Below are positions 4,276 to 21,668 of a stretch of 64,000 bases of DNA, piece by piece (within the stretch, counting starts at the first letter, position 1; each line of letters begins with the position of its first letter). The notes below the pieces were generated by a model. The model was not told where the DNA came from. It ran no database searches and was given only the letters and a program-made list of their open reading frames with translations. Source of the DNA: a virus; the IMG/VR virus record IMGVR_UViG_3300045988_152007, positions 60,475 to 124,474 of that record, one strand, 5' to 3'. A program made the translations under genes and the position numbers.

Positions 4276-4277
4276 AA

Positions 4278-4553: not shown

Positions 4554-4886
4554 TTAGTACTCCTCTCCAATAGAATAGTTATAATATTCACCAGCCATAA
4601 GAAGAGTCCAACCATAGAAAGAAATATCTTTATCGTCAAATGGAAATCTAAATTTATTATACTCTTTCCAGTCAAGAACTTTATCATTGAGATAAACTTC
4701 CATAGGATTTTCACCAGGTTTTACTGTAATTTCTGTTTCATTATAATAATAATCATCAAGGAATGCCCTATATGCTTCTTCTTCGGCGGCGGCAAGAATC
4801 AGTTCCTGCACATCAGCTTCAGTATTACAGATACCAAGAATACCAGGATAGAAGTTATCAAAATAATCATAAGCAACATACTTCAT
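4554..4886 (-). CDS. small early protein, paralog family member
   Basis: 110 aa. MKYVAYDYFDNFYPGILGICNTEADVQELILAAAEEEAY. Confidence 0.45.
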   Translation of the reverse strand: MKYVAYDYFDNFYPGILGICNTEADVQELILAAAEEEAYRAFLDDYYYNETEITVKPGENPMEVYLNDKVLDWKEYNKFRFPFDDKDISFYGWTLLMAGEYYNYSIGEEY

Positions 4887-4973
4887 AATTTATTTTCTCC
4901 CTCATTTTTATATATATATTTTAACAAATTTTTTTATAAAAATAAAAGAGCCAGATTTACTCTGGCTCTTTGA

Positions 4974-5273
4974 TTATCTATTTACTTCTTCAACGATTAC
5001 AATAGCATTATGAATTACGACACGATTACCATTATAATCAAAGAATGTTTCATTTTCTGATTCACTAATATCAATCATTGCCGGACCATATTCCCGCAAG
5101 AGATTACCATTGTAATCATAGACAGACACAATACGATAAAGACCGCCAGTGTAATTACTTCTCCAACTCTTTAAGGTACGCTGGAAATTCGCACCACTGA
5201 ATGTAAAAATCAACATACCAATTACAAGAGCCACAACAATAATAACAATCAGGACGCTACTTCTACTTCTCAT
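4974..5273 (-). CDS. membrane-anchored protein
   Basis: 99 aa with N-terminal TM VLIVIIVVALVIGMLIFTF. GGAG RBS upstream. Confidence 0.45.
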   Translation of the reverse strand: MRSRSSVLIVIIVVALVIGMLIFTFSGANFQRTLKSWRSNYTGGLYRIVSVYDYNGNLLREYGPAMIDISESENETFFDYNGNRVVIHNAIVIVEEVNR

Positions 5274-5284
5274 ATTATTTCTCC

Positions 5285-5574
5285 TTATAAATCGTTTGTT
5301 TTACAGAATAAATACATTACGAATGCAATGATTACAAAACCAAAAATAAATATTTTAATCATTGTACAAACTGCCAAGAGCATAAAAGGTAAGACAAATA
5401 AAAATGGTTAAGAAAAATAGTTCCATTAATCAGTAGCCCTCGCTAATACAATTCCAATAACTACACCAATTAAGGTACATAATACTATTACAATCATTAT
5501 ATTTCACTCCCTAATGCTGCTCCAACTAAAACGGCAAATATACAGAGGATAAAAACTCCTATAATTAAATCCAT
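5285..5574 (-). other. cluster of four tandem, overlapping micro-ORFs encoding 23-26 aa hydrophobic peptides
   Basis: Minus-strand reading gives MDLIIGVFILCIFAVLVGAALGSEI, MIVIVLCTLIGVVIGIVLARATD, MELFFLTIFICLTFYALGSLYND and MIKIFIFGFVIIAFVMYLFCKTNDL. Each start overlaps the preceding stop as TAATG or ATGATTAA. Confidence 0.3.
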
Positions 5575-6944
5575 TAATTATCCTCCAAAGTCATTTCTTC
5601 TTCAATTTCTTCCATGTCAGGCACTTCTGCATCAACCTTAATCAGGTTCTCAAGCACTTTAAAATTATAAGATTTATCTTTTGCAACATCGAAACGAGTG
5701 CCGTTCATCTTACGAATAACTACGCCCTCAATAACATGAGAAGAATCAATCGTAGAAGGAATATCCTCATATTTAGCAATTCGTGCTAGAAAATCCTCTT
5801 TAGTGGTGTAAATAAAACGTTCAAGTTCAGGCACAGTTTCAAAACCCATCTGTTCAGCACGTTGCTTAACAAGGTCCCAAGGATATTCAATTACTACTCC
5901 TTCTGGAGTGGTATAAGTCATACGATAAACAAAATAGCGATTAAGATGCTTATTGTCACCAGTAGGAGAACAACCATAAGAGAAGGTAGTGGTCTTACCA
6001 TATTGTTTGATAAATGCTTTATCTTTAGTTTTAGTGTTATCACCCGGCGTCATAATAGGTGCGTTAGGAGCATAGAATCCTGCAATTTCACCGAAGCATT
6101 CCTCATTGGGCAGAAGCTTACCCTTGAAACGTTCGCCCCAAGCTCTACGGAAATCATCATTACCATAGAAACCGCCAACACTATTATTGGTAAGAACAGT
6201 GCGGCGAGTGCCAATTAGATAACGCATTTCAGTTTTAGGAGTAAGGTGGGACTGTGCAGACATACGCCATTTCTTCGGTAACCAATTGCTGTGTGCAATA
6301 AGTTTAGTAAGGAAGAAACCGTTTTCACCAATAATTGCAGTTTGATATGCGTTTCGAGAGCTGGTACCATGAACTTTCTCGGTCAGGCAAATGATATCAC
6401 CCGGTTTAAACATATCCATATTAAAACGAAGCTGCGGAGTATCAATATGTTCTGCGAAGAACGGGTACTTAATGCGGCATTTCTTTGCAGACTTACGGTC
6501 GCGTTCGCCGCGTGCAGTAGGTTGTGAAGCTCTGGGCTTATGCATCGGCACGTACTTCTCGGCAATCACATGACCATTAAAGGTAGATACAATATCACCT
6601 TCAGCTAGATTGCTAATGTCGCCAAAAGAAGCAAGACAAGTAAGCGGAAGTACCAGGCCTTCAGACTTATTGCCGCGTAGACGAATTGCACCAATATTAC
6701 GCTTCACAGGGTCAATGAAACCACCAGCCGGATTACCATTTTCATCCTGGCGGCGGAAGAGATCATTTGCCTTACCAAACTCTTCGCTAATCTGACCATC
6801 CGTAGGAAAATAGACGTAAAGGTCATTTTCATTCACGGATTTATCAACAATGGTAGTAATACCAAATACTTCACAGGTATTCAGACGGTCAGCATTTTCC
6901 GCAGGTCTAATGTTTTTTACTTTACAAATATATACATTATACAT
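5574..6944 (-). CDS. ATP-dependent RNA ligase, Rnl2-like nucleotidyltransferase with N-terminal extension
   Basis: 456 aa. Motif I KVHGTS (KxHGxN-type), motif III FGEIAG, motif IV EGVVIRK, motif V AKDK. Confidence 0.55.
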   Translation of the reverse strand: MYNVYICKVKNIRPAENADRLNTCEVFGITTIVDKSVNENDLYVYFPTDGQISEEFGKANDLFRRQDENGNPAGGFIDPVKRNIGAIRLRGNKSEGLVLPLTCLASFGDISNLAEGDIVSTFNGHVIAEKYVPMHKPRASQPTARGERDRKSAKKCRIKYPFFAEHIDTPQLRFNMDMFKPGDIICLTEKVHGTSSRNAYQTAIIGENGFFLTKLIAHSNWLPKKWRMSAQSHLTPKTEMRYLIGTRRTVLTNNSVGGFYGNDDFRRAWGERFKGKLLPNEECFGEIAGFYAPNAPIMTPGDNTKTKDKAFIKQYGKTTTFSYGCSPTGDNKHLNRYFVYRMTYTTPEGVVIEYPWDLVKQRAEQMGFETVPELERFIYTTKEDFLARIAKYEDIPSTIDSSHVIEGVVIRKMNGTRFDVAKDKSYNFKVLENLIKVDAEVPDMEEIEEEMTLEDN

Positions 6945-6976
6945 TTATGTCTTTTCCTTTCTTAATTTTAGTTAGT

Positions 6977-7129
6977 TTTCTACTGGAGTAAAGAAGTTGA
7001 GGCTTTCGGTTAGCCATCTATTTGCTTCGGGATCAAAGTAAAGGACACGGAAATATCCGCTATCGTCTCGGAAAATTTGTGCGATCGTATAAGTCTTACC
7101 GGAGACATTGTTTTTCATTTTCATAATTA
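6977..7129 (-). CDS. small hypothetical protein (50 aa)
   Basis: MKMKNNVSGKTYTIAQIFRDDSGYFRVLYFDPEANRWLTESLNFFTPVEN, overlapping the start of the upstream gene. Confidence 0.3.
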
Positions 7130-7402
7130 AATCCTTTCGTTATAGGGGATGCGGCTATAGCCCATAATCATAGGCCATATCATTTTAATTAAATCTGGAT
7201 AAGAAGTTAGAGTGCTTAAATACTCTATCTTCTTTTCTTCTACTATTGGTGTATATGCGGGACGAGAATGTTCTTTTTTGAGTTCTACCAAGTTTTTTGC
7301 CAATTGAACTCTTTTGTCCAAAAGGCGTACTATCTTCTCATCATAGGCCGCAATCTCATTCCGCATTTCAGTTGCACGGTCAAGATATTCGTCAAGATTC
7401 AT
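7127..7402 (-). CDS. chorismate mutase (AroQ)-like small protein
   Basis: 91 aa. MRNEIAAYDEKIVRLLDKRVQLAKNLVELKKEHSRPAYTPIVEEKKIEYL aligns with the AroQ pattern LRxxIDxLDxxLLxLLxxRxxLxxxVGxxK...P..D..RE. Confidence 0.4.
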   Translation of the reverse strand: MNLDEYLDRATEMRNEIAAYDEKIVRLLDKRVQLAKNLVELKKEHSRPAYTPIVEEKKIEYLSTLTSYPDLIKMIWPMIMGYSRIPYNERI

Positions 7403-7685
7403 TCGGACGCCACCTTACAATCATCGTATTATTGGTAAAACAAGTTGTAAACTTATTAGAATTAAGAATTTCTTGAAGTTTCTTAACGGTATAATTGCTT
7501 GATGACGGAGTATCATCGGGAGAAATGACAATGGTATAGGCATATGCACCATTTGTTGCCGCTTGTAGCATTGCCGGCGTATTATTTGTGATGATTTCTT
7601 CTGCTCTTTCAGTTGCCGCACGTTCCTTGTTGGCTTCCGCTTCAGAGGTAAGAGTAGTAAGTTTAGCAAATAAGTTTTTATCCAT
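7392..7685 (-). CDS. hypothetical protein
   Basis: 97-aa ORF. Confidence 0.4.
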   Translation of the reverse strand: MDKNLFAKLTTLTSEAEANKERAATERAEEIITNNTPAMLQAATNGAYAYTIVISPDDTPSSSNYTVKKLQEILNSNKFTTCFTNNTMIVRWRPNES

Positions 7686-7745
7686 TTTTTATTTTTCCTC
7701 TATTGTTTATATATATATTTTATAATATTTTTATTTATTTTTCAA

Positions 7746-7946
7746 TTAAAATGGATATTGAATGTTTCGGCGAAGTCTCTCATATGCGGCAATATAATAG
7801 ATTTTATCATCACATTTGTATTTAGCTTTTCTACCACTCCAAAAGGTAACATGAATAGTGTTAGTAGTATTGTCGCCTTTTACGAAGCGAATGTCATTTT
7901 TCACTTGATGTTTGCGTTGAAGGCCTGTATAGATAGTAATTACCAT
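7746..7946 (-). CDS. hypothetical protein
   Basis: 66-aa ORF. Confidence 0.35.
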   Translation of the reverse strand: MVITIYTGLQRKHQVKNDIRFVKGDNTTNTIHVTFWSGRKAKYKCDDKIYYIAAYERLRRNIQYPF

Positions 7947-8236
7947 GGGTCAACATCTCCATAGCTACCGTAATATTTCATATTGGTATTATTTACTGCT
8001 TCATTGCGTGCGGCTCGCATAATATCCATCCATTTATCTTGGGCAGCATCCCAATATTTTTTATCTTTGAAGGAATAAACAGCTATCGTCTCTTCTGTGG
8101 TATCTCCTACAGTTTGAATTTGCATTTTATATTTTTCATTTGGGTCGGTATAAAAACTAACGTAGAGGATGGCCGATGTTTTATAGCAGCAAAAATTTTT
8201 ATTATCTGTTGTAAATGTGAAATATGGATTAATCAT
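7940..8236 (-). CDS. hypothetical protein
   Basis: 98-aa ORF. Confidence 0.4.
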   Translation of the reverse strand: MINPYFTFTTDNKNFCCYKTSAILYVSFYTDPNEKYKMQIQTVGDTTEETIAVYSFKDKKYWDAAQDKWMDIMRAARNEAVNNTNMKYYGSYGDVDPW

Positions 8237-8438
8237 AAGTCATTAAATGTATCTATAGCGTCTTGATAATCTCTTATGTTATCGAATGTAAATGTTTCAA
8301 TACCGTTAGATTTAGTTGTAAGTTCCATTGTTAATTCATTATTTAATTCATTTTGAGTATAGAATTTTACGTTTACAATATCATTAACGACATAGAAAAA
8401 TATATTATTATCATCTAGGGCAAACTACATAAACTTTT

Positions 8439-8906
8439 TCATACAAGAGCCTCCAGATATTTATCCACTGTTTTAGTATAGTCAGCATAATTAATTTGTG
8501 TATTCCACTTTTGGATATCGGCCAGAATGCTGTCAATAGTTGTAAGAGTAGGTGCGTTGCCATAATTAGTGGTATCTATTTCAAATGCGGGCTTAGGAGT
8601 AGGCTTAGGGGCGAGTGCGAATTTTTCACATGCTGCAATATTTTTCTTGAAATTCACTTTTCCATAATTGCCCATAGTGCCAAGGCAGTAAAGATTATCT
8701 TTATCATTGGGGTTAATCATATAGGCATACATGCAGTCGGGCAGTAATTTATGATAGGGGTCATAATCTTTAAGGCAGTAGATAGTAGTAGCACTAAGTC
8801 CGCCCTTGGTGAGTAGCCTCTTCTGGAACTCTTCACCATTAAGGACCCAGACTTTAAGATTGTTGTAGCTACCAACTTTGCCATTTTGTTCACGATAATT
8901 TGGCAT
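8439..8906 (-). CDS. hypothetical protein
   Basis: 155 aa. TGA stop overlaps the ATG of a downstream micro-ORF (ATGA). Confidence 0.45.
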   Translation of the reverse strand: MPNYREQNGKVGSYNNLKVWVLNGEEFQKRLLTKGGLSATTIYCLKDYDPYHKLLPDCMYAYMINPNDKDNLYCLGTMGNYGKVNFKKNIAACEKFALAPKPTPKPAFEIDTTNYGNAPTLTTIDSILADIQKWNTQINYADYTKTVDKYLEALV

Positions 8907-9121
8907 TTAAGATTTTCCTTTCTTATCTTTTATCTTATATATATTTTATCAAATTTTTTTATATTTTTCCACTATTTATAAAACCAATAGGTATATTTTT
9001 ATTTCAACTTATATCAATTAAACTTGTTATAAATTACTTAAAATTTTTTGGGCCACCGCGGTTAAGAATATTATTCATATTTTTATATATAGTAGATTAA
9101 TAAAAGAAAAGGAGAATATAT

Positions 9122-9274
9122 ATGCCAAGTAAACGTGAAGGCTATCATAATATTGCAACTCGTGTTAAGGATGAAGAAAAGGCACGTATTGATGAATTCT
9201 GTAAAGAAAATGATATGAGTGTTTCGCAATTAATTAGAAAAGCCATTAAAGAATATATTGATAAGGAGAAGTAA
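9122..9274 (+). CDS. ribbon-helix-helix (CopG/Arc-like) DNA-binding protein
   Basis: 51 aa. MPSKREGYHNIATRVKDEEKARIDEFCKENDMSVSQLIRKAIKEYIDKEK. GGAGAA RBS. Confidence 0.55.
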   Translation: MPSKREGYHNIATRVKDEEKARIDEFCKENDMSVSQLIRKAIKEYIDKEK

Positions 9275-9469
9275 TACAAAGTGAACAAAGAACAAAATAA
9301 AAATATGATTATTTATTCATTAGCTGTTATGGAAAAGCTAGTGGAAAATGGTCATTTCCCTATATAGACTATGCCCAATCCCAAATATCCTGAATATAAT
9401 TGCTGGATATTTAAGGTTGATGATGATTTTATGAGGGATTTTGTTGAAGCTCAAAGGAGGTAATTATTT

Positions 9470-9991
9470 ATGGCAGTTGAAAAGCCGAATAAAGAAAAAT
9501 TTACCTTCTGGGCTAATATGAGAGAAACTATTGAATAGAATGAAGATGTAGAATTAAAATATAAATTATATAGTGCATTAACTAACTATGGATTGTATGG
9601 TATTGAGCCTGATGAGAATGATAAAGATTATGGAGTTATTATGATGCTGTTATAGTCTATGAAACTTACTATTGATAAGTCTAAAGAGGTTAGTAAATAG
9701 AAAGCAGAAGCAGGAGCAGCTGGTGGAGCATAGTAGAGAATTTATAAAGAAGATGTAGAAAAAGCGATAGTAAAAGCTGTTAAAGATAAAAATGGAGTTC
9801 CTACTAAATAGGAAGCAGTTGATGCTTATTTTAAAATTTTTGGTTAGAAGATTAGTACCAGAGCATTAGACAGAGTAGATTATAAAGCTCCGTAGATATT
9901 TGAATTAGCATAGAAGGTATTAAATGGGACCTATAGGACAAATGCGACAAATGAGACAAAAGCAGACATTTGTCTTGAATGGGACAAATGA
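9470..9991 (+). CDS. hypothetical protein, TAG-recoded (about 9 in-frame TAG), C-terminus overlapping iteron array
   Basis: ATG after GGAGG. First in-frame TAG at 9536-9538. Sensible translation continues to TGA at about 9989. Confidence 0.35.
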
Positions 9992-10220
9992 GTTTTGTCC
10001 TATTTTTAAATGAAAGTATTAAAATGTCGATAGGACAAATGCGACATAACTAAATAAAAATCTAAAAAAATTAGCAAAATGACTTAGTTTAGGACAAATG
10101 CGACAAATGCGACAAAAGCTGAAGAAAGAAAATGTCCTGTCCGATTTGTCCTATTCAGGACATCGAACATAACATATTTGTCCTATTGTGTCCCATTCGG
10201 TCCACAATAGGACAAAACAG
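9934..10220. repeat. iteron-like cluster of direct and inverted TAGGACAAA(TGCGACA) repeats
   Basis: Direct copies at about 9934, 9981, 10031 and 10090 (taggacaaatgcgacaaatgcgacaaaagc). Inverted copies tttgtcctat at about 9994, 10144 and 10176, plus aataggacaaaac at 10206. Confidence 0.6.
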
Positions 10221-10261
10221 GGTATTTTCTTGAATGGCGGTGTTGGCCTTGTGGTTGCAAA

Positions 10262-10330
10262 GAAATGAATTGAAAAATGAAATCAAAAATTGAAAGGAAA
10301 AATTGAATTGAAAAATTATGAATTTAATAT
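10262..10330. repeat. AT-rich tract with reiterated GAAAAATTGAA motifs adjacent to iterons
   Basis: gaaaaatgaaatcaaaaattgaaaggaaaaattgaattgaaaaattatgaa. Confidence 0.4.
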
Positions 10331-10940
10331 GAAATTATAGAATCGTGAGAATTTGTTAAATATTTATAGAACATTAGAACCATTATCATCATTTAGTAAA
10401 TATAATGATTGGTTAGATAGAGAATATATAGCTATGATAGTTCCAGATAATTATAAAGAAATATGTGTAGATGATTAGAAAAAATTAACTAAACCTTATT
10501 GGACATATAAATAGAAATATTATAATTGGTTTGGAACCAAAGATGAATTTGATGCTATGGTTGCAAGATAGTAGGAAGAAAGACGAAAATTACTTGAACG
10601 ATAGTCTAAAAAAAATGTATCATAGGTATGTGATGGTGGAGTATATGGTATATATAGGAATGGATAGTTAATTTATATAGGTAGTACTGTTGATTTTAAT
10701 AAAAGATGGAATGAACATAAAAGAAATATTAAAAATCATAATAATAGTTTATATGTATATAAACTATTAAATGAGTAGAGAGATAATATTGAATTTAAAC
10801 CAATTATAAAAGGAGAGGATTTATTATGTGATAGAAATATAACATCTGCTGATTTAAAAACTATAGAGTTTGCGTTAATTTTATTATATAAACCTTGTGG
10901 GAACATAGCAGGTAGATTATAGCCATTTAGATATAAATAA
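10329..10940 (+). CDS. GIY-YIG homing endonuclease, TAG-recoded
   Basis: Motif VYGIYRNG(TAG)LIYIGSTVDFNKRWNEHKRNI. About 9 in-frame TAG. TAA stop at 10938-10940, followed by hairpin gtaggctaattgtatattagcctac. Confidence 0.6.
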
Positions 10941-11304
10941 AGTAGGCTAATTGTATATTAGCCTACAAGAGATATAATTATAAAGAAGGTATTATAAAAA
11001 TTTAATATAAATTTAATTTAAAATTAATATTAGTTAATATAGAATCATTTATGAATTATAATAATTTGAGAAAAGATTGTTATAAAATTGATATAAATTG
11101 TATTAAATTAGGGAGTGGGTGTGCCCCTACTGCACCAGTGGTACCCCTATTCTCCATATATCGACCGACATCAATTATTCATCACCCTAATGCAATTATA
11201 TCTTTTTTTAATATTATATCATATTTTTTTATAAAAATCAAATTTGACTTTCCAAAATTTTCCAGCCAAAATAAAAAAATAAGAAAAGGGCATAAGCCCT
11301 TCTC

Positions 11305-11700
11305 TTACCACCCCATCATATTAAGGAACTTATCAATGACTTCATCAGCAGAGCCATTGACCTTGTATACCTTAGCCTTTACTTTCTCAGCAGGCTTCTC
11401 AACCGTCTTACCAAGGTCTTCAATAGCACGACCAATCTTATCAGCCATATCAAAAACCTTCATCAGGTCTTCCGGCTTGACCTCAATGTCATAACCATAA
11501 TAATCCTTAGCAAACTTCACCAGGCCAGTGCAGATAGCCTGTGCATCCGCGGCCATTGTCTGATCTCTCTTGGACTTTTCAGCCTGAGCCTTCAACTCTT
11601 CTGTTCTCTTGGCCTGTGCCTTATTCAGTTCCTCAGTGATGCTCTTGGCAATATCCTCTGCGGATTCACCCTTCATCAGACGATCATAAAAATCATACAT
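11305..11700 (-). CDS. hypothetical protein (K/E-rich, coiled-coil-like)
   Basis: 131-aa ORF with a terminator hairpin at its 3' end. Confidence 0.5.
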   Translation of the reverse strand: MYDFYDRLMKGESAEDIAKSITEELNKAQAKRTEELKAQAEKSKRDQTMAADAQAICTGLVKFAKDYYGYDIEVKPEDLMKVFDMADKIGRAIEDLGKTVEKPAEKVKAKVYKVNGSADEVIDKFLNMMGW

Positions 11701-11860
11701 ATGTATATTACCTCTTTATAAAGATTTCCAGAACTCTTTATTCTGTATATATATTATAAAATATTTTTTTAAAAATTGCAAGTTTCGGGAAAAACATGCG
11801 GCATATGAGAGGCTGCTAGATTGAACAAAAAATTGCCATATGAGGGTTTAAACGGGAATT

Positions 11861-11887
11861 CCGACCAAGTCTTGCCAGACCGGTCGG
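11861..11887. terminator. GC hairpin ccgacc...ggtcgg, possible bidirectional terminator
   Basis: ccgaccaagtcttgccagaccggtcgg, followed on + by a T-rich tract. Confidence 0.35.
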
Positions 11888-11943
11888 CTCCAATTTATTT
11901 ATTTAATTAATTGAAGTATTTTTAATACTTCATCATACCCATA

Positions 11944-12519
11944 CTAATTTATCAATCGAGTTGTTTCCTTTGTTATTTCTTTCCTATTCATTAACATCCA
12001 AGCAGTATTCTCTTTATTAGTTCCCCATCTTAAATTTGATAACCTATTATTCCCTCTTTTTCCATCAATATGGTCTACTGTCAAATTTTGGAAATCAGGG
12101 CTAGGGTGCCAAGATTGTAATACAATTCTATTCATTCCATATCTATGATAATCTAATTCTACATACTAATATCCATCTATTATAGTTCCCTATAAAATTT
12201 TTTTATCATATTTTTTTCTAACCCTTCCTAAATCTGATACTTCGTACAAGTTAGAACAATAAGTAGTTATCCATTTTTCATTTTTTAATTCTTCTTCAGA
12301 TAAATGAGAATAATTATCAAGTTCTCGTTTTTTAGAAAAAAATTTTTTATCTAATATCTATGGTTCTACTTCTTGAATAGTATAATCAGCCGTTTCACCT
12401 TTACCAATTTTTGTAATTAAATACCCTTTAGCTAAATTTTTAGAGCAGAGCAAGGGAAAATTGGTTTCTACCATTCCAACTGTTGTATTAATATATTTTG
12501 CTAATTCATATTTGTTCAT
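11944..12519 (-). CDS. HNH homing endonuclease, TAG-recoded (3 in-frame TAG)
   Basis: ATG at 12519-12517 after AAAAGGAGG. N-terminal NLYEVSDLGRVR motif. C-terminal HNH VDHIDGKRGNNRLSNLRWGTNKEN. The in-frame TAG at + 12166-12168 was verified codon by codon. Confidence 0.6.
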
Positions 12520-12628
12520 AATTTTTACCTCCTTTTACATAATACTATAAAATTCGGGAAAAATCAATTTTCGTAAAATGTCCGAATTTTTTTTCGGAAA
12601 ATTTACAATTATCAAATTAAATCAAAAT

Positions 12629-12656
12629 TCCGGTCGCGTCAACTGTACGCGACCGG
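12629..12656 (-). terminator. rho-independent terminator (9-bp GC stem)
   Basis: ccggtcgcgtcaactgtacgcgaccgg, with a U-tract on the minus strand. Confidence 0.55.
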
Positions 12657-12720
12657 TTGAAATTACCATCTGTTCCAATATTTTCCTTGGAAAAATTTTC
12701 CAATTATGATTCCAAAAAGG

Positions 12721-12750
12721 ATGGAAGATGTTTCCATCTTCCATCTATTT
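12721..12750 (-). terminator. hairpin terminator at gene end
   Basis: gatggaagatg...catcttccatc, followed by ctttttgg on the minus strand. Confidence 0.4.
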
Positions 12751-13107
12751 CCTTGGGCGCATCAGGGTCAGCCGGTATTTAATTCCATTGTAAGTAAATT
12801 CCATTTCTCGTTCTGGATTTGCAATGGTAATATTACCCAAATCCAAATCGGGGTAGGCATCTTCCAAGGAACTTTCCAAATACTGGATTAGTTCCCTTTT
12901 ATCTCCATCAGGTTTTCGCTCCCGCCTTACATTTTCCACTTTCTTCCGGTCGGCACGTCTTGCCTTTTTTGCTCCTGCTTCAAGCTCCGGCGGCAACTCA
13001 AACAGCTTTTCGCCCCTATCAATTCGCTTGTCCATTTCCAAAACCTGTTTGGCTTCTTCAATGGAAATTTTAAGCGAATTTGCCAACTTTTCAGCGGTCA
13101 TTGACAT
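12745..13107 (-). CDS. small basic protein, paralog of 15024..15422
   Basis: 120 aa. Shared pattern IEEA..VL..DK.IDR..K...L.PE and C-terminal Y.LTL..R. Confidence 0.5.
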   Translation of the reverse strand: MSMTAEKLANSLKISIEEAKQVLEMDKRIDRGEKLFELPPELEAGAKKARRADRKKVENVRRERKPDGDKRELIQYLESSLEDAYPDLDLGNITIANPEREMEFTYNGIKYRLTLMRPRK

Positions 13108-13199
13108 TTTACCGTCCTATTAGAATTTTATTTACTAGGAACTAGCTAGAACTAGCTGGGAGAAGTAAGGGGAGCTTTCTCCCCTTACTTCTTTTTCGC

Positions 13200-13577
13200 T
13201 CATGCCTTGGTGTAGTAGACACGCCGCTTTTCAGTGGTCTTAATCACCCTGCCATCTTCCACAAGAGTTCTGAGCAGATTCGCCATTCTCTGCGTGGACA
13301 TATCGTTCTCATGGTTGGCATTGAAATCTGCCACAACCGGAAGCTCCTTGAGCAGTTCGGCAATGGAGTAAGTCCGGTTGGCTTCCATCTCCTGATAAAT
13401 CCGCTCCACCATCGTGGCGTTCTCGACCTGCTGTGCAGTCTCCTTCTTTTCGCCGGACTTCTTGGAAACAGAAGCAAGCAGGGCTTCCAGCTTCTCACGA
13501 ACATCAGACGCGAGGACGATGTTCTCATTGTTCAGAACGGTGTTCAGAGCCTGAGCATAGGTAATCTTCTTTTCCAT
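13200..13577 (-). CDS. winged-helix-like protein, paralog of 15469..15855
   Basis: Start moved to ATG 13577 (AGAAAGGAATTGATAATTATG). C-terminus SIAELLKELP...VIKTTEKRRVYYTKA is near-identical to the paralog. Confidence 0.5.
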   Translation of the reverse strand: MEKKITYAQALNTVLNNENIVLASDVREKLEALLASVSKKSGEKKETAQQVENATMVERIYQEMEANRTYSIAELLKELPVVADFNANHENDMSTQRMANLLRTLVEDGRVIKTTEKRRVYYTKA

Positions 13578-13648
13578 AATTATCAATTCCTTTCTAGCGG
13601 TAGGTCGCAACCCTTATTTGTTTTGTGTTCCTCTCTTGGAACAATTAT

Positions 13649-13677
13649 ATTGTATCACAAACCTTTTGATTTGTCAA
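13649..13677 (-). promoter_or_regulatory. sigma-A-type promoter TTGACA-17-TGnTACAAT
   Basis: Minus-strand read: TTGACAaatcaaaaggtttgtgaTACAAT. Confidence 0.5.
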
Positions 13678-13802
13678 TACCTTAATTGAATTTTCCACGA
13701 TTTTTTTTCGGCTGACATTTTATCGCGGAACGCTGGAAGTAATTGTCAGAATGGCAATTTCAATACCGTAGCTATGATAATTTTGGGAGAGTTGGGAGCT
13801 TT

Positions 13803-14660
13803 TTACAGCTCCCAATCACTGTCAAATCTTCCCAACTTCTTGTAGGGGAAATATTCAATGCCCATTTCAAACTTGTGCTTGGTCTTTGCTCCAATAAGGG
13901 CGAACAGCATAGACTCAATAATTGCGTCCTCTAATGCAGTATGACTTTCTTCAAAATCTTCCTGCTGGAAACAATAGGCAAATGCCTTTTCTGCGTTAGT
14001 CGGATAATATTTGCCGCTTGCGGTTCTCCACTCATTATCATAGCACATCTGTTTATATTCAGGATTATTCAACAGGTGTTCACAAGACAGACCCCACAAG
14101 TCAAACAGCGGATACGTCTTGCCATGGAAGCGGAAAACATCCGGTTCAAACTCTTTCTGCGAATGGGGCTTGCTTCCGTGGGCGATTGCTTCACATCTAT
14201 CATTCTGATATGCTTCCCACTCAAAGAAATCAGGGGCATAGAGCTTGGAAACATACAGGTCAGTGAATGGAATAGCTTTCTTAAAGTCAAACATACTGTT
14301 ATATGCTCCAACAGCTACAACAGCGTCCAAATCTTCAATCAGTTCATTGACTGCGGTATTCCAATCCGTCAGCTTGATTTCTCCGGCTTTCAGACGCTCC
14401 AAATAAATCGGACGCTTACTTGCATAATATGCAGTATTGAAAACTGCGGGAACACTGAAAATTTCAGAAATAAGGTAGGACGCACGCTTGTAAACATTGC
14501 CCCGAATATCCACAATCTGCCATCCCAAATCATAAATCAGCGGCTTGGCGATTGCGACATCTTTTTTCTGGTTTGCATTAAACTTTGCGGCATAAGGAAG
14601 TGTCGCAGTTTCACAATCCAGAATCAGGTAATACTTTCGACGCTTATCAAGTTTAGTCAT
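13803..14660 (-). CDS. DEDDh (DnaQ-like) 3'-5' exonuclease
   Basis: 285 aa. Exo I YLILDCETATL, Exo II YNSMFDF, Exo III HTALEDA. Confidence 0.65.
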   Translation of the reverse strand: MTKLDKRRKYYLILDCETATLPYAAKFNANQKKDVAIAKPLIYDLGWQIVDIRGNVYKRASYLISEIFSVPAVFNTAYYASKRPIYLERLKAGEIKLTDWNTAVNELIEDLDAVVAVGAYNSMFDFKKAIPFTDLYVSKLYAPDFFEWEAYQNDRCEAIAHGSKPHSQKEFEPDVFRFHGKTYPLFDLWGLSCEHLLNNPEYKQMCYDNEWRTASGKYYPTNAEKAFAYCFQQEDFEESHTALEDAIIESMLFALIGAKTKHKFEMGIEYFPYKKLGRFDSDWEL

Positions 14661-14900
14661 AGGGTTTCCATCCTTTTAATAATGTCAATCAGGGTTTGCC
14701 ATCGCTCCCTCATTGCTCTTATATATTATCACACCTTGCCCAAAATGTCAAGAAGAATATTTATTCATTTTCAATGAATATTTATGCACGCTTTAACACT
14801 TTAATGTAGTAAAGTGCGGCACTTTAAGGATTTAATACTTTAATCAAATGAAGCAGAGTTTTGGTAAAAAAATTGGTAAAACTGGTAAATATTGGAAATT

Positions 14901-14927
14901 CTGCCCGGCTAGGTCGTGGCCGGGCAG
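14901..14927 (-). terminator. rho-independent terminator
   Basis: ctgcccggctaggtcgtggccgggcag, with a T-rich tract on the minus strand. Confidence 0.55.
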
Positions 14928-15023
14928 CCCAAATGTCAATAGATAAAAATGCACAAAAAATCCTTAAAAATTCATTAAATTATACAAAAATGCTGGAAAA
15001 ATTTTCATTTTCCAGCATTTTCT

Positions 15024-15422
15024 TTAAGTTTTTGATGCTCTCTTTTGTATCAGGGTCAATTCGTAGCGGTTGCCGCCACTTGTAAACATGATTGTACGCT
15101 CTTTATTTGTGATTTCTTCATCAATCACTTCAAAATCTGCCGTTTCTGTCAAATATTTTGACAAACCGGCAATAATCGCACCTTTAATTTCATTAGGCTT
15201 ACGCGGGCGATAGACATTGCTTTTCTTAACTGTATGCTCTTTGACATTAGCAAGTTTCATTGCTTGCTTATGTTCTTCTGGACTTAAATCAAAATCAACC
15301 TTCTGATTGCGGTCAATAGCTTTGTCGGCGTCCAGAATGTCAACTGCTTCATCAATCGAACATTCCAGCTTGTCAACAAGATTATCGACTTTTGCCCATT
15401 CCTTTTCAGTCAACTCTCTCAT
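15024..15422 (-). CDS. small basic protein, paralog of 12745..13107
   Basis: 132 aa. IDEAVDILDADKAIDRNQK...GGNRYELTLIQKR. Confidence 0.5.
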   Translation of the reverse strand: MRELTEKEWAKVDNLVDKLECSIDEAVDILDADKAIDRNQKVDFDLSPEEHKQAMKLANVKEHTVKKSNVYRPRKPNEIKGAIIAGLSKYLTETADFEVIDEEITNKERTIMFTSGGNRYELTLIQKRASKT

Positions 15423-15468
15423 AGGCTCTCCTTAAATAGTGGGGCGGATTTCTCCGCCCCTTGGTTTA

Positions 15469-15855
15469 TCACGCCTTAGTGTAGAACACTCTGCGTTTCT
15501 CGGTGGTCTTAATGACCTTGCCACCATCGACCAGCGGCTTCAACAGGCTTGCGAGCTTCTGAACCGACAGTTCAGTTTCGTGGTTGGTGTTCCAGTCATT
15601 GACCATCGGAAGCTCCTTCATCAGCTCTGCAACGCTGTACTTACGCTCGAATGCCATCTGCTCATAGATTGCATCAGAGTAGGCGGCGTTTTCTTCCTGC
15701 TCCTTGGCCTGCTTCTTGTTTTCCTTCTTGTTGTCCAGCAGTTCAATCTGGTGATTGATGAAATCAATCAGGTCAGTGTCTGCATCATGCTGGGCGAGGA
15801 AGTCAGAAACAGTAGTGAACATTTCCTTGCGGGTGGGGGCTTTAATCTTTTCCAT
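15469..15855 (-). CDS. winged-helix-like protein, paralog of 13200..13577
   Basis: 128 aa. ...SVAELMKELP...VIKTTEKRRVFYTKA. RBS GAAAGGATTGATACC-ATG. Confidence 0.5.
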   Translation of the reverse strand: MEKIKAPTRKEMFTTVSDFLAQHDADTDLIDFINHQIELLDNKKENKKQAKEQEENAAYSDAIYEQMAFERKYSVAELMKELPMVNDWNTNHETELSVQKLASLLKPLVDGGKVIKTTEKRRVFYTKA

Positions 15856-15904
15856 GGTATCAATCCTTTCTGGTTTTTAAGTGTTTCCTTCACTTGTTGA
15901 CTCA

Positions 15905-15933
15905 ATTATAACACATCAGGTACTATTTGTCAA
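15905..15933 (-). promoter_or_regulatory. sigma-A-type promoter TTGACA-17-TATAAT
   Basis: TTGACAaatagtacctgatgtgtTATAAT. Confidence 0.5.
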
Positions 15934-16035
15934 GAGGGAATTTTATTTATTTTTGAAATTTTTTCGGATTTCAAACCGTGATGCTAACTTAATAGCAATA
16001 GGTTTTTCTCTAACCGTTCCCTCTTGACATTATAG

Positions 16036-16064
16036 AGTATATCACATTTCAGGATTTTTGTCTA
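16036..16064 (-). promoter_or_regulatory. promoter TAGACA-17-TGnTATACT; part of a 130-bp cassette repeated at about 20770-20900
   Basis: TAGACAaaaatcctgaaatgtgaTATACT. The same element recurs upstream of the 19663..20727 gene. Confidence 0.45.
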
Positions 16065-16123
16065 TTGGCAAGATGCACAAAATTTGCATGAAAAAATTGT
16101 GCAAAATGCTAAAAAATTAAAAT

Positions 16124-16152
16124 GCCGCCCGGTGTGCAGGACATCGGGCGGC
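16124..16152 (-). terminator. rho-independent terminator
   Basis: gccgcccggtgtgcaggacatcgggcggc. Confidence 0.55.
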
Positions 16153-16173
16153 TCAAATGAACCGCCCAATTTT

Positions 16174-16584
16174 TTAGGAATTTTCATCCAAACCGCAGGC
16201 AATTTCCAGAAGATTACAGATATTCAAAATATCATAAATTTCTGGCTGTTCAAAATCATCATCATCTTCCCGCCACTCCCAGCAAATGCAACCGCAGTAT
16301 TCACCATTGGCATTCAATGGATAGTAATACCAGCCATTGTCAATTCTTGATGCTTCTCTCAAATTTTTCGGAAACCAACAATTCTTTGGTTCAGTATTAT
16401 AGCTTGCAACAGGTGTGCCGTCTGCACCATAAATTGCAACCGGCATTTCATTTCTTTTGAACCAAGCAATAATAACCTTAATAAGAAATTCCATTTTACC
16501 CCTCCACCAGATTTTCCTTGATAAATTCATCATCTTCATAGAAGAACTCGCCCCATGAAAATTTACAAATCCAAAGGGCTTCAT
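16174..16584 (-). CDS. hypothetical protein (Cys/Trp-rich)
   Basis: 136-aa ORF. The true start may be the internal MEFLIK. Confidence 0.4.
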   Translation of the reverse strand: MKPFGFVNFHGASSSMKMMNLSRKIWWRGKMEFLIKVIIAWFKRNEMPVAIYGADGTPVASYNTEPKNCWFPKNLREASRIDNGWYYYPLNANGEYCGCICWEWREDDDDFEQPEIYDILNICNLLEIACGLDENS

Positions 16585-16641
16585 AATGGTCCCACTGGAC
16601 CGCTTGGGCGATGTAACCGCCCTTTCTGAACTTCTTCCCTT

Positions 16642-16917
16642 TCATTCGTTAAAATCCTTCTTTCCATCAAGAATTGCCTCAATCTCCGAAGTGGTCAGGC
16701 AGTCAATCTTTTCTTCAATCTCATGGAGAATATCTCCATCATCTCCGCAGATTTCATCGGTGATGTTCAGCCATTCATCATAGATGTGGAGCAGAACAAA
16801 ATCGCCCGACTCGATTATTGCACCACAACAACCGCAGATAATTTCATCTCTGTCCTGATTCCAGATACCCGCCTGAACAGTTCCCTCGTTATCCATGAAA
16901 ATAACCTGATAATTCAT
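16642..16917 (-). CDS. hypothetical Cys-rich protein
   Basis: 91 aa with CGCCG and CGDDG motifs. RBS AAAGGAAATGATACA-ATG. Confidence 0.45.
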   Translation of the reverse strand: MNYQVIFMDNEGTVQAGIWNQDRDEIICGCCGAIIESGDFVLLHIYDEWLNITDEICGDDGDILHEIEEKIDCLTTSEIEAILDGKKDFNE

Positions 16918-16947
16918 TGTATCATTTCCTTTCCTTTTGATAAATCA

Positions 16948-16977
16948 ATTATATCACAGGTCAAGGGGCTTTGTCAA
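16948..16977 (-). promoter_or_regulatory. sigma-A-type promoter TTGACA-18-TATAAT
   Basis: TTGACAaagccccttgacctgtgaTATAAT. Confidence 0.45.
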
Positions 16978-17384
16978 GCCCCTTGATTAAATTTCTTGCC
17001 AATTTCCTGAATATCTTCAAGTACTTCTTCATAAGACCGCCACTCGCCATAGTGGTATTCAGGGTCATAATACCACAGACCATAGTGGTCAATCAATCCC
17101 ATGACAATTTTAATGGGAACTTCATAGCCCATTTCATCAAAATAATCATTGATGAATTGTGCCCAAGCGTAAGAATGAATTTCAACAGCTCCAATTTCAT
17201 CACATTCAGGATAATCAAAACTATTGATTTCTTTACCAAGGACATTGAACATTTTTATTGGTTCGCAATTTTCAGTTTTACACAGATCTTCGTATCTGCA
17301 TTTCCATTCATGATGAATACATTCCGCTTCATCGTCGAACACCTGCCCGCAAAAGTCGCATTCATAGGTCGTAATTTCAGTCAT
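16974..17384 (-). CDS. zinc-finger protein
   Basis: Start at ATG 17384 after GGAATTGATAATC. N-terminal CDFCG...CIHHEWKC. Confidence 0.45.
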   Translation of the reverse strand: MTEITTYECDFCGQVFDDEAECIHHEWKCRYEDLCKTENCEPIKMFNVLGKEINSFDYPECDEIGAVEIHSYAWAQFINDYFDEMGYEVPIKIVMGLIDHYGLWYYDPEYHYGEWRSYEEVLEDIQEIGKKFNQGA

Positions 17385-17415
17385 GATTATCAATTCCTTT
17401 CCTTTTGGTACTATT

Positions 17416-17444
17416 ATTATATCAAATTTTTTTTAATTTGTCAA
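17416..17444 (-). promoter_or_regulatory. sigma-A-type promoter TTGACA-17-TATAAT
   Basis: TTGACAaattaaaaaaaatttgaTATAAT. Confidence 0.5.
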
Positions 17445-17493
17445 GCCGGTTGGGAATTTTTTTTTATAATTTTTTTCCCAGCCGGCTTGTTTT

Positions 17494-17724
17494 TTATTTC
17501 ATGATTGCATGAAATTCTTCTGTATGCCCGCACTTATCACAAGTGTAATAATAGTTTTTTGAACCACGCCAATTTGTAGCACTAGAAAACTGATACTGAC
17601 CATCACATTCGCAGTATCCATTGTTCCAGCGATTATGGTCTCCCTCTGCTTCTTTATACATAAGAGTCGCAACGCCAAAAGCGATAGCAAGTGCAACTAA
17701 AATAGCAACAATTTGCCGCCCCAA
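17494..17724 (-). CDS. small membrane protein with C-terminal zinc ribbon
   Basis: 76 aa. TM IVAILVALAIAFGV. CECDG...CDKCGH. Confidence 0.4.
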   Translation of the reverse strand: MGRQIVAILVALAIAFGVATLMYKEAEGDHNRWNNGYCECDGQYQFSSATNWRGSKNYYYTCDKCGHTEEFHAIMK

Positions 17725-17819
17725 GTTTCAGGGGCAAGAAAAGCAATCATTAGAGGAAATACGGCCATGACAGCCCATGCAATATAAAAACTAGGATTTG
17801 TAAGCATTTGTATCACTCC

Positions 17820-18131
17820 TTAAATATAAATAACTCTATTGCCACCAGCAGGCGGATTTGTATTATCTACTGTAATGTCAGTTTCCCCGTCCTGACCATC
17901 TTCATCTTCATACTCGACATGGAATGTCAAATCTCCAACATTATCCAGATAATCCTGAATAGCCTTAATAATTGCGGCCATGTACTTTGCTTCTTTCTCT
18001 TGGTCTAACTGGTTAATTCTTGTCTGTGCTAATGCAATCAGGGTCTGTAATTCTTCGGGCTTCATGTTGTTTATATAATTGTGCAAGTCCTGCAAATTCA
18101 TTGCTTCAACAATAGCGGATTCAAAATTCAT
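17820..18131 (-). CDS. hypothetical protein with acidic C-terminus
   Basis: 103 aa. RBS GAAAGGAATTGATATC-ATG. Confidence 0.45.
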   Translation of the reverse strand: MNFESAIVEAMNLQDLHNYINNMKPEELQTLIALAQTRINQLDQEKEAKYMAAIIKAIQDYLDNVGDLTFHVEYEDEDGQDGETDITVDNTNPPAGGNRVIYI

Positions 18132-18160
18132 GATATCAATTCCTTTCTTTTGATAAATCT

Positions 18161-18189
18161 ATTGTATCACATTAGGGGTTGTTTGTCAA
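18161..18189 (-). promoter_or_regulatory. sigma-A-type promoter TTGACA-17-TACAAT
   Basis: TTGACAaacaacccctaatgtgaTACAAT. Confidence 0.5.
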
Positions 18190-19607: not shown

Positions 19608-19637
19608 TTTTATCAATTCCTTTCTTTTGATAGCCCT

Positions 19638-21633: not shown

Positions 21634-21668
21634 TCCAACAATTTACACCAGCATAATAAACTATAATT

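What the first reader, a model, noticed from the sequence alone, without database searches (positions are those of the whole stretch)
10329..12519. Both homing endonucleases (GIY-YIG and HNH) are heavily TAG-recoded although they sit inside the TAG-poor early region
The plus-strand GIY-YIG gene (10329..10940, about 9 TAG) and the minus-strand HNH gene (11944..12519, 3 TAG) have TAG density typical of late genes. Their early-region neighbours have none. The HNH gene has its own promoter-like element (TTGATT-17-TATTAT), AAAAGGAGG RBS and terminators. Two readings are possible. These free-standing mobile genes may be deliberately held back until the code switch. Alternatively they may have spread among genomes that share the recoded code and simply keep the late-gene codon usage.
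Basis: partly seen in the sequence, partly recalled or inferred. Interest (0 to 1): 0.6.

Follow-up and report, generated by a model that had tools for sequence, protein, structure and literature searches.

The report
Amber-recoded nuclease genes in early arm
Two nuclease genes of a gut phage that reads the stop codon TAG as glutamine lie among genes that avoid TAG, so the full enzymes can be made only after the phage switches the code; this is a real feature, but a similar case in another group of recoded phages has already been described.

Summary
The core observation holds, with corrections. The window is a TAG=Gln (code 15) siphovirus. Its minus-strand early arm has 0 in-frame TAG in 5,737 codons. 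Its plus-strand late arm has 237 TAG against 283 CAA/CAG. The GIY-YIG ORF (best model 10308..10940) has 10 TAG and no CAA/CAG. Both genes are intact and under purifying selection (dN/dS about 0.12).

They are not isolated exceptions. They sit in a low-GC, hypervariable island (about 9.1-12.7 kb). Its DUF6291 gene (9 TAG) and a small ORF (1 TAG) also use TAG; the ribbon-helix-helix (RHH) gene has none here but 2 in relative L070.

HNH is a mobile cassette. It is present at the same intergenic site in some relatives and cleanly absent in six others. Its TAG share of Gln codons (50%) matches late genes and drifts.

GIY-YIG keeps the same position in every relative that has this module. It encodes Gln almost only by TAG (82/89 across alleles, against about 46% in late genes).

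Full-length nuclease therefore requires amber suppression. Whether that delay is selected is plausible for GIY-YIG and unsupported for HNH. Borges et al. proposed the same idea for a TGA-recoded intron endonuclease. No suppressor tRNA was found.

The parts
10308..10940 (+). GIY-YIG nuclease gene. It has 10 in-frame TAG, at 10338, 10476, 10512, 10569, 10572, 10602, 10623, 10665, 10776 and 10920, and no CAA/CAG. GC is 0.235. The N-terminal ~100 aa form a domain of unknown type; the GIY-YIG domain is C-terminal.
   Evidence: dN/dS is 0.115 against L166.
11899..12519 (-). HNH (NUMOD4 + HNH_3) endonuclease gene of 206 aa. In-frame TAG at codons 54, 110, 118 and 192 (12360-12358, 12192-12190, 12168-12166, 11946-11944); 4 CAA. 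GC is 0.267. The model of 93%-identical homolog P0001 shows a winged-helix domain at residues 1-50, a linker at 51-80, the NUMOD4/HNH domain at 83-178, and C-terminal helices.
   Evidence: dN/dS is 0.134 against L083.
11851..12664 (-). Extent of the HNH cassette relative to empty sites in relatives: an indel of about 765-775 bp. The boundaries are ambiguous by about 40 bp, because a hairpin+AATT motif occurs at both ends.
   Evidence: Alignment A1. Empty sites in L002, L003, L005, L084, L085 and L166.
12528..12567 (-). HNH translation and transcription signals. SD AAAAGGAGG at 12536->12528. A -10-like TATTAT at 12544->12539. A weak -35-like TTGATT at 12567->12562. A conserved motif TCCCGAATTTTATA at 12559->12546.
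12630..12745 (-). Two terminator-like hairpins between the upstream early gene and HNH (12745->12720 and 12656->12630). They would insulate HNH from early read-through transcription.
   Evidence: The hairpin varies by compensatory changes among cassettes.
11861..11887 (-). GC-rich hairpin just downstream of the HNH stop codon, with no U-run. It is shared by HNH-positive genomes.
9122..9274 (+). Ribbon-helix-helix (Arc/CopG-like) gene, the first gene of the plus-strand island. It has 0 TAG here and 2 TAG in relative L070.
9281..9463 (+). Small ORF with 1 in-frame TAG. It resembles small helix-turn-helix-like phage proteins but has no family hit.
9470..9991 (+). DUF6291-domain gene of 173 aa, with 9 in-frame TAG and no CAA/CAG.
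   Evidence: (Pfam 2.2e-8).
9925..10220 (.). Iteron-like array: about 10 or more copies of the core AGGACAAAT / GCGACAAAT in both orientations, lying between the DUF6291 and GIY-YIG genes.
   Evidence: A different repeat core accompanies a different DUF6291 type in L085.
11305..11700 (-). TAG-free early gene (GC 0.44) between GIY-YIG and HNH. It belongs to the conserved backbone.
12745..13107 (-). TAG-free early gene upstream of HNH. In this window it ends in TAG, whereas relatives end in TAA.
8439..8906 (-). TAG-free early gene forming the left border of the island.

Best explanation
The window comes from a large siphovirus of a probable Firmicutes host that reads TAG as glutamine in part of its genes.

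The two nuclease genes are intact code-15 genes. They lie in a low-GC, hypervariable accessory island (about 9.1-12.7 kb) wedged between conserved, TAG-free early operons.

HNH is an I-HmuI-like free-standing endonuclease cassette with its own SD, a -10-like element and a 3' hairpin. It sits behind the terminators of the upstream early gene. It comes and goes at one fixed intergenic site, as a homing element would.

GIY-YIG has an I-TevI-like catalytic core at its C-terminus. It is the last gene of a conserved RHH - small ORF - DUF6291 - iteron module.

Both ORFs carry in-frame TAG: codon 11 of 210 in GIY-YIG and codon 54 of 206 in HNH. Ribosomes would therefore stop before the catalytic domain until amber suppression is active. 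Full-length nuclease is thus gated to the post-switch phase, whichever promoter drives the mRNA.

- For HNH the TAGs look like passive late-type codon usage.
- For GIY-YIG (and DUF6291) the near-exclusive, maintained use of TAG suggests that the block itself, or the TAG codon, is selected.

Shown: the ORFs, domains, TAG=Gln, synteny, presence/absence, codon statistics and purifying selection.
Inferred: timing, the suppression mechanism, homing activity, and any adaptive value.
For: - Two-regime genome. Early genes have 0 TAG in 5,737 codons. Late genes have 237 TAG against 283 CAA/CAG. TerL, portal and MCP-like genes were identified in the TAG-using arm.
- TAG = Gln. TAG and CAA/CAG interchange at conserved Gln positions in HNH and GIY-YIG homologs and in late genes.
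- Intact genes. There is no TAA/TGA in frame. dN/dS is 0.115 and 0.134 at dS about 0.28. The catalytic residues are invariant in the family alignments: D149/H150/N171 in HNH, and Y123/R133/H137/E187/N199 in GIY-YIG.
- HNH mobility. There is a clean ~770-bp indel against six relatives. The cassette sits at the same site in the window, L004, L070-75 and L083.
- Island-wide pattern. In the relatives examined (L070, L076, L083-85, also L002-L006), backbone genes are almost all TAG-free and most island genes carry TAG and have low GC.
- Codon usage with Gln excluded. The late-versus-early score is +0.53 for GIY-YIG and +0.34 for HNH. The late mean is +0.25 and the early mean is -0.28. Immediate neighbours score -0.42 to -0.85.
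- GIY-YIG TAG preference. Counts are 10/10 in the window (binomial P=4e-4) and 82/89 over nine alleles, against a late-gene share of 0.46. Where Gln is kept at 42-60% aa identity, 24/25 sites stay TAG, against roughly 30-65% in late genes of recoded relatives.
- Precedents. Borges et al. describe a preferentially TGA-recoded intron endonuclease in an early gene of Agate phages. T4 endonucleases embedded in early units are made only from late transcripts.
Against: - There are no expression data. 'Early' and 'late' rest on strand, gene content and TAG use itself.
- No suppressor tRNA was found in the 64-kb window, in 10 kb beyond its left edge in relatives, or in any of the loci scanned. The switch is therefore assumed by analogy.
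- HNH TAG usage (4/8) equals the late background, and its TAGs flip to CAA/CAG at about the synonymous rate. Nothing indicates selection for gating in HNH.
- The GIY-YIG statistics count related alleles (about 3-4 independent types). In the one same-genome comparison, window against L004, TAG retention was about 3 of 4-5 sites, similar to the late genes of that genome (60%).
- The HNH promoter could not be assigned to a temporal class.
- GIY-YIG keeps the same position in every relative that carries the module, which is not what a sporadic homing element shows.
Confidence: 0.6

Rival explanations
1. Purely passive codon usage. The island genes are AT-rich, weakly expressed, horizontally exchanged cassettes that circulate only among recoded phages. 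TAG accumulates by drift wherever it is tolerated. Timing is set by transcription, and the TAGs have no regulatory role.
For: TAG occurs in most island genes, not only the nucleases. The overall codon usage of both nuclease genes is late-type. HNH TAGs drift to and from CAA/CAG. TAG density across late genes tracks AT-richness, and presumably highly expressed capsid genes avoid TAG.
Against: GIY-YIG and DUF6291 use TAG for 19 of 19 Gln codons in the window. GIY-YIG alleles gain lineage-specific Gln almost only as TAG. In AT-rich genes, mutation from AAA or GAA should instead yield CAA (inference from the code table).
Confidence: 0.25
2. The 'early region' label is wrong for this stretch. The island is an ordinary middle/late, possibly replication-origin, transcription unit that happens to lie inside the early arm. 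Its genes use TAG like any post-switch gene, and nothing about the nucleases is special.
For: The RHH-DUF6291-iteron-GIY-YIG unit is on the plus strand, like the late genes. It has its own upstream region, and hairpins lie on both sides. The DUF6291 protein type and the repeat core co-vary, as an initiator and its iterons would.
Against: HNH, and the L006 gene at the same site, are on the early strand and still carry TAG. No promoter motif is shared with late operons. This view overlaps with the best explanation rather than excluding it.
Confidence: 0.1
3. The ORFs are decaying pseudogenes of a standard-code ancestor, and the in-frame TAGs are real stops.
For: Under table 11 both ORFs are fragmented.
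Against: There is no TAA/TGA in 203-206 codons (P about 1e-8). dN/dS is about 0.12. Catalytic residues are invariant. TAG aligns with Gln in homologs. TerL, portal and tail genes need the same reading.
Confidence: 0.02

Closest known systems
Preferentially recoded group I intron endonuclease in an early gene of TGA-recoded 'Agate' phages (Borges et al., bioRxiv 10.1101/2021.08.26.457843; later in Nat Microbiol 2022, from my own knowledge)
   Same: An endonuclease gene inside the early part of a stop-codon-recoded phage carries in-frame recoded stops. The authors proposed that this prevents endonuclease production until late infection. GIY-YIG here is likewise preferentially recoded.
   Different: Here the codon is TAG=Gln, not TGA=Trp. 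The genes are free-standing, with no intron: Rfam found none and the empty-site alignment is intergenic. The phage lineage is different. The recoding covers a whole accessory island. HNH is not preferentially recoded.
I-HmuI, the intron-encoded HNH nicking endonuclease of Bacillus phage SPO1 (PDB 1u3e)
   Same: It is the best and only significant sequence match (E=3e-4) and fold match (E=1.2e-5). It shares the NUMOD4-like strands and the HNH motif, with the catalytic Asp-His and Asn conserved.
   Different: The window protein is free-standing. It has an extra N-terminal winged-helix domain and a short helical tail in place of the I-HmuI C-terminal DNA-binding domains. It contains 4 TAG codons.
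I-TevI and the seg-type GIY-YIG endonucleases of T4, and their delayed expression
   Same: The catalytic motif is shared: GIY...YIG, Arg, His, Glu and Asn. In T4, endonucleases embedded in early or middle units are translated only from late transcripts, because the RBS is sequestered (PMC2988022). The logic is the same: a nuclease made late although located early.
   Different: The catalytic domain is C-terminal here, whereas it is N-terminal in I-TevI. The proposed gate is the genetic code, not RNA structure or promoter choice. The gene keeps the same position in every relative that carries the module. The top fold hits are UvrC and T4 EndoII rather than I-TevI.
phAss-1 / proposed Phassvirus group of TAG-recoded human-gut siphoviruses (PMC10607447)
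   Same: These are large siphoviruses with a tape-measure protein of about 3,100 aa, TAG=Gln in TerL, portal and tail genes, and a human-gut origin. TerL is 42% identical.
   Different: The relationship is only distant, with no nucleotide-level match. phAss-1 carries three tRNA-Sup(CTA) genes, and none was found in this window. That paper does not discuss recoded endonucleases.

Membership tests
HNH homing endonuclease (I-HmuI-like, NUMOD4 + HNH_3) | HNH beta-beta-alpha-metal motif with catalytic His and Asn | tested here: met
   Pfam HNH_3 2.6e-9 and NUMOD4 2.4e-5. D149, H150, N158, N162 and N171 are invariant in 25 sequences. Fold match to 1u3e with E=1.2e-5.
HNH homing endonuclease (I-HmuI-like, NUMOD4 + HNH_3) | Sporadic presence or absence at a fixed site among otherwise co-linear genomes | tested here: met
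   Present at the same intergenic site in the window, L004, L070-75 and L083. Cleanly absent in L002, L003, L005, L084, L085 and L166.
HNH homing endonuclease (I-HmuI-like, NUMOD4 + HNH_3) | Site-specific nicking or cleavage of the empty allele, followed by gene conversion | not testable with these tools
   Needs cleavage assays on the L002-type empty site and mixed infections.
GIY-YIG homing endonuclease (I-TevI / seg-like) | GIY-YIG catalytic core with conserved Tyr, Arg, His, Glu and Asn | tested here: met
   Pfam 1.9e-6. I-TevI 1mk0 E=0.01. Y123, R133, H137, E187 and N199 are invariant. The GIY-YIG fold matches with probability 0.97-1.0.
GIY-YIG homing endonuclease (I-TevI / seg-like) | N-terminal catalytic domain joined to a C-terminal DNA-binding domain | tested here: not met
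   The catalytic domain occupies about residues 104-200 of 203. The N-terminal ~100 aa form a separate domain with no family match. P0060 and P0061 carry other N-terminal domains.
GIY-YIG homing endonuclease (I-TevI / seg-like) | Sporadic distribution or demonstrated mobility | tested here: inconclusive
   The gene lies at the same position in every relative that has the RHH-DUF6291 module (L002-4, L070-75, L083-85, L166). Alleles are only 42-93% identical in near-identical backbones, and the module is replaced in L006 and L076.
Stop-codon-recoded (code 15) phage with recoding biased to late genes | In-frame TAG in conserved structural genes, aligned with Gln in homologs | tested here: met
   TerL has 11 TAG, portal 10 and the tape-measure-like ORF 108. 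TAG and CAA/CAG exchange in relatives.
Stop-codon-recoded (code 15) phage with recoding biased to late genes | Early genes compatible with the standard code | tested here: met
   0 TAG in 5,737 codons of 44 minus-strand genes. The same holds, with rare exceptions, in the relatives examined.
Stop-codon-recoded (code 15) phage with recoding biased to late genes | Phage-encoded suppressor tRNA(CUA) | tested here: not met
   None in the window or in any of the loci scanned. Only about 40% of a genome of roughly 150 kb was visible, so absence from the genome is not shown.
Preferentially recoded endonuclease in the early region (Borges et al.) | The recoded stop is used more often than the standard codon, relative to the genome's recoded genes | tested here: met
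   Met for GIY-YIG: 10/10 in the window and 82/89 across alleles, against 0.46 in late genes. Not met for HNH: 4/8, P=0.55.
Preferentially recoded endonuclease in the early region (Borges et al.) | Encoded inside a self-splicing group I intron | tested here: not met
   No Rfam intron hit in the window. HNH lies in an intergenic indel. GIY-YIG lies between a repeat array and a conserved non-coding block.

The most novel reading that the evidence does not exclude
The code switch acts as a selected 'code lock' on a whole accessory island rather than only on late structural and lysis genes. On this reading, GIY-YIG and the DUF6291/iteron (origin-like) module are under selection to spell Gln as TAG, so that they act only after suppression starts. 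That would place the switch at or before the onset of island-driven replication or recombination, not merely 'late'.

A further possibility concerns HNH. Its conserved TAG at codon 54 falls exactly at the end of the winged-helix domain of the homolog model. Before the switch it would yield a 53-aa DNA-binding fragment, and afterwards the full nuclease: two products from one gene through a change of code.
Probability: 0.15. Interest if true: 0.65.

Novelty: new member of a known kind. Interest (0 to 1): 0.4.

Why it matters
This adds a second, independent example of selfish or accessory nuclease genes in the early part of a recoded phage that are written in the recoded dialect. The lineage is different, the codon is TAG rather than TGA, and the genes are free-standing rather than intron-encoded.

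It also extends the picture from single genes to a whole hypervariable island that includes a probable DNA-binding protein/iteron module.

The contrast between the two genes gives a concrete comparative handle on an open question: are recoded stops in phages regulatory devices or neutral by-products? HNH uses TAG at the background level and drifts. GIY-YIG uses TAG almost exclusively and keeps it.

For annotation, nuclease and accessory genes in such islands will be missed or fragmented unless code 15 is applied locally, even inside blocks that look standard-code.

Tried and rejected
- Group I intron or other RNA family. Rfam at gathering threshold on the whole window found nothing. An E-value search of 10900-11320 gave only a chance hit.
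- Suppressor tRNA. ARAGORN found none in the window, in selected loci, or in a local run on all 165 loci held at that point.
- Walking beyond the right edge with an exact 29-mer found no match.
- Close annotated relatives. Megablast of 24 kb of the late arm against INPHARED gave no match. blastn of the island matched only a 72-nt HNH motif in a crAss-like phage.
- Structured RNA in the conserved non-coding block 11105-11300. The fold z-score was -0.12, so this was rejected.
- A promoter motif shared between the HNH cassette and late or early operons. The conserved TCCCGAATTTTATA motif is unique in the window. TTCCCGAA occurs only at the two sites flanking HNH. No temporal class could be assigned.
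- Pseudogene reading. Rejected on dN/dS and the absence of TAA/TGA.
The 93%-identical homologs P0001 and P0034 were modelled instead.
- The L076 208-aa island ORF was first taken for a GIY-YIG homolog. It is an unrelated HTH_36-like protein.
Full report
**What the window is**

An ORF scan that treats only TAA and TGA as stops splits the 64 kb into two arms.
- A minus-strand arm (14..28865) holds small genes, an RNA ligase (5574..6944) and an exonuclease-like gene.
- A plus-strand arm starts at 29355. It opens with a sigma-factor-like gene, followed by TerL, portal, an MCP-like gene, a 3,107-aa tape-measure-like ORF and tail genes.

The 44 minus-strand genes contain no in-frame TAG in 5,737 codons. 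The 19 plus-strand structural genes contain 237 TAG beside 283 CAA/CAG. In relatives, TAG and CAA/CAG replace each other at conserved glutamine positions. TAG is therefore read as Gln (code 15).

TerL is 42-47% identical to phAss-1, Enterococcus phage EF1 and Geobacillus virus E3. phAss-1 is a published TAG-recoded gut siphovirus with a tape-measure protein of about 3,150 aa and three tRNA-Sup(CTA) genes (PMC10607447). Strong AGGAGG ribosome-binding sites and these relatives point to a Firmicutes host; that is an inference. No tRNA and no Rfam family is present in the window.

**Checking the observation**

GIY-YIG:
- The plus-strand ORF has 10 in-frame TAG, no TAA/TGA, and no CAA or CAG at all.
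- It matches Pfam GIY-YIG (1.9e-6) and the I-TevI catalytic domain.
- A model built from its family folds as a GIY-YIG domain (UvrC and T4 EndoII hits, probability 0.97-1.0).
- The catalytic Tyr, Arg, His, Glu and Asn are invariant in 18 family members.
- The start is probably TTG 10308. The 93%-identical homolog P0034 begins MKNYEFNMKLQ.

HNH:
- The minus-strand ORF from 12519 matches HNH_3 plus NUMOD4 and PHROG 59 (1.9e-24).
- Its only significant solved relative, by sequence and by fold, is I-HmuI.
That codon is an in-frame TAG. The following 14 codons (YGYDEVLKILQLIK) are conserved in all 24 homologs. The gene is therefore 11899..12519 with four TAG.

Chance and function:
- Neither ORF could stay free of TAA/TGA by chance (P about 1e-8).
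- Both are under purifying selection. dN/dS is 0.115 and 0.134 at dS about 0.28.
- Against the early genes, the TAG excess is highly significant. Fisher P is 2e-15 and 1e-6.

Signals around HNH:
- The sigma-70-like promoter is only a 9/12 match in an AT-rich region where such hits are near the shuffled expectation.
- Among six divergent HNH cassettes, the -10-like element, the SD and a TCCCGA(A/T)TTTATA motif are conserved. The -35 is not.

**What the surroundings add**

The nucleases are not lone TAG users. Upstream of GIY-YIG, on the same strand, lie:
- a ribbon-helix-helix gene (9122..9274, no TAG);
- a small ORF (9281..9463, one TAG);
- a DUF6291 gene (9470..9991; nine TAG, no CAA/CAG);
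- an array of about 10 or more copies of AGGACAAAT/GCGACAAAT in both orientations (9925..10220).

I retrieved related loci from IMG/VR and ENA/Logan assemblies through three neighbouring or resident proteins.

In the relatives examined the pattern is the same. Backbone early genes are almost all TAG-free and have 36-50% GC. The genes between the homologs of 8439..8906 and 12745..13107 have 24-34% GC, and most contain TAG.

The island is hypervariable. Backbone genes are 90-98% identical where GIY-YIG alleles are only 42-57% identical. DUF6291 occurs in two types, and the type B genome inspected (L085) has a different repeat core. L006 and L076 carry different island genes, HTH_36-like and others, which also contain TAG.

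Synonymous codon usage scored without Gln codons puts GIY-YIG (+0.53) and HNH (+0.34) with the late genes (mean +0.25). Their immediate neighbours score -0.42 to -0.85. The whole coding dialect is late-type, not only TAG.

**HNH behaves as a mobile cassette**

Alignment of the window with L002 and L005 shows a clean indel of about 770 bp between the terminator of the upstream 120-aa gene and the promoter region of the downstream 131-aa gene.

| State at this site | Loci |
|---|---|
| Cassette present | window, L004, six ENA contigs (L070-75), L083 |
| Cassette absent | L002, L003, L005, L084, L085, L166 |
| Replaced by another TAG-containing gene | L006 |

Every homolog for which DNA was inspected contains TAG, from 1 to 5 codons. 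However, TAG and CAA/CAG flip at homologous sites even between 93%-identical copies. The TAG share of Gln codons in the window copy (4/8) equals the late-gene share of 0.46.

**GIY-YIG behaves differently**

It lies at the same place, downstream of the DUF6291 gene and its repeat array (checked in the window and L085), in every relative that has the module. Its family was found only in this phage group.

Its Gln codons are TAG in:

| Allele | TAG / total Gln codons |
|---|---|
| window | 10/10 |
| L002 | 9/10 |
| L003 | 11/12 |
| L004 | 7/10 |
| L070 | 5/5 |
| L083 | 10/11 |
| L084 | 11/12 |
| L085 | 8/8 |
| L166 | 11/11 |

. Many of these TAGs are at lineage-specific positions.

At window-TAG sites where Gln is retained, homologs at 42-60% identity keep TAG in 24 of 25 cases. 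Late genes of recoded relatives at about 55% identity keep it in roughly 30-65% of cases.

There are caveats. The alleles are related, so there are only about three or four independent types. In the single same-genome comparison (L004/L088), retention in GIY-YIG was about 3 of 4-5 sites, not clearly above the 60% seen in that genome's late genes.

**Mechanism**

If TAG terminates translation until a suppressor is expressed, ribosomes stop early in both genes. In GIY-YIG they stop at codon 11 of 210. In HNH they stop at codon 54 of 206, which falls exactly at the end of the modelled N-terminal winged-helix domain. This assumption is the general model for recoded phages (Borges et al.) and was not tested here.

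Neither catalytic domain could then be made before the switch, whatever drives transcription. HNH is additionally insulated from the upstream early operon by two terminator-like hairpins.

This is the same logic as in T4. There, endonucleases embedded in early units are translated only from late transcripts (PMC2988022). Borges et al. explicitly proposed it for a preferentially TGA-recoded intron endonuclease in an early gene of Agate phages.

I therefore regard the delay as a mechanical consequence of the code. It is plausibly selected for GIY-YIG and DUF6291, and probably passive for HNH.

The main rival is drift of TAG in AT-rich, weakly expressed, horizontally exchanged genes. This rival explains HNH and the island-wide pattern. 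It does not explain the near-exclusive TAG use in GIY-YIG.

**Limits**

- There are no expression data.
- The suppressor tRNA was not located.
- Homing activity and target sites are untested.
- Calling GIY-YIG a homing enzyme is doubtful. Its catalytic domain is C-terminal, its position is conserved, and its best fold hits are UvrC and T4 EndoII.

**Verdict**

It is a new member of a known kind rather than a new phenomenon. The HNH/GIY-YIG contrast and the recoded origin-like island are the parts worth following up.

Noticed in passing
window 9925-10220 (and L085 about 6430-6830): An iteron-like array of about 10 or more copies of AGGACAAAT/GCGACAAAT in both orientations. It begins inside the 3' end of the DUF6291 ORF. 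In L085, which has a different DUF6291 type, the array at the same place uses a different core (CTTGTAAAA/TTTTACAAG). This suggests a cognate DNA-binding protein and site module, origin- or operator-like. If it is a replication origin, its initiator-like gene needs amber suppression (9 TAG).
   Followed up: partly
window 11105-11300: A non-coding block of about 190 bp between GIY-YIG and the 131-aa early gene. It is nearly identical in relatives whose GIY-YIG alleles are only 42-57% identical. On the minus strand it contains a 10/12 sigma-70-like promoter with an extended -10 (11241->11213). It has no RNA-family hit and no fold signal (z = -0.12). It might be a regulatory region or a nuclease target.
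   Followed up: partly
window 12745-13107 (-): This TAG-free early gene ends in TAG in the window but in TAA in relatives. After the code switch it would be read through for 41 more codons, into the region upstream of HNH.
   Followed up: partly
window 35798-39622 and 42956-44041: Inside the TAG-rich late arm, the MCP-like gene and its neighbours have 0-2 TAG, higher GC (0.32-0.42) and intermediate codon usage. This suggests TAG is avoided in the most highly expressed structural genes.
   Followed up: partly
loci L092, L093, L154 (late regions of relatives): Members of the same phage family, with late proteins about 54-57% identical, use essentially no TAG for Gln (0-1%). Recoding was therefore gained or lost within this family, which makes it a useful comparison set.
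   Followed up: partly
window 29169-30290: The late arm opens with a sigma-factor-like gene (PHROG 5767, 1.9e-46; probable TTG start near 29226). It lies behind a near-consensus TTGACT-17-TATAAT promoter with a TG extension (29169-29197). The gene carries a single TAG, at codon 54 of the ATG-29355 ORF. A near-identical promoter lies at 45579-45607.
   Followed up: no
window, early versus late gene sets: Early proteins contain about half as much glutamine (2.5% of codons) as late proteins (5.0%, counting TAG).
   Followed up: no
L076 6886-7248: A second type of GIY-YIG-related gene (T5orf172 domain, 120 aa, 1 TAG) sits in the early arm of a more distant relative that also carries an HNH homolog with a single TAG.
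   Followed up: no
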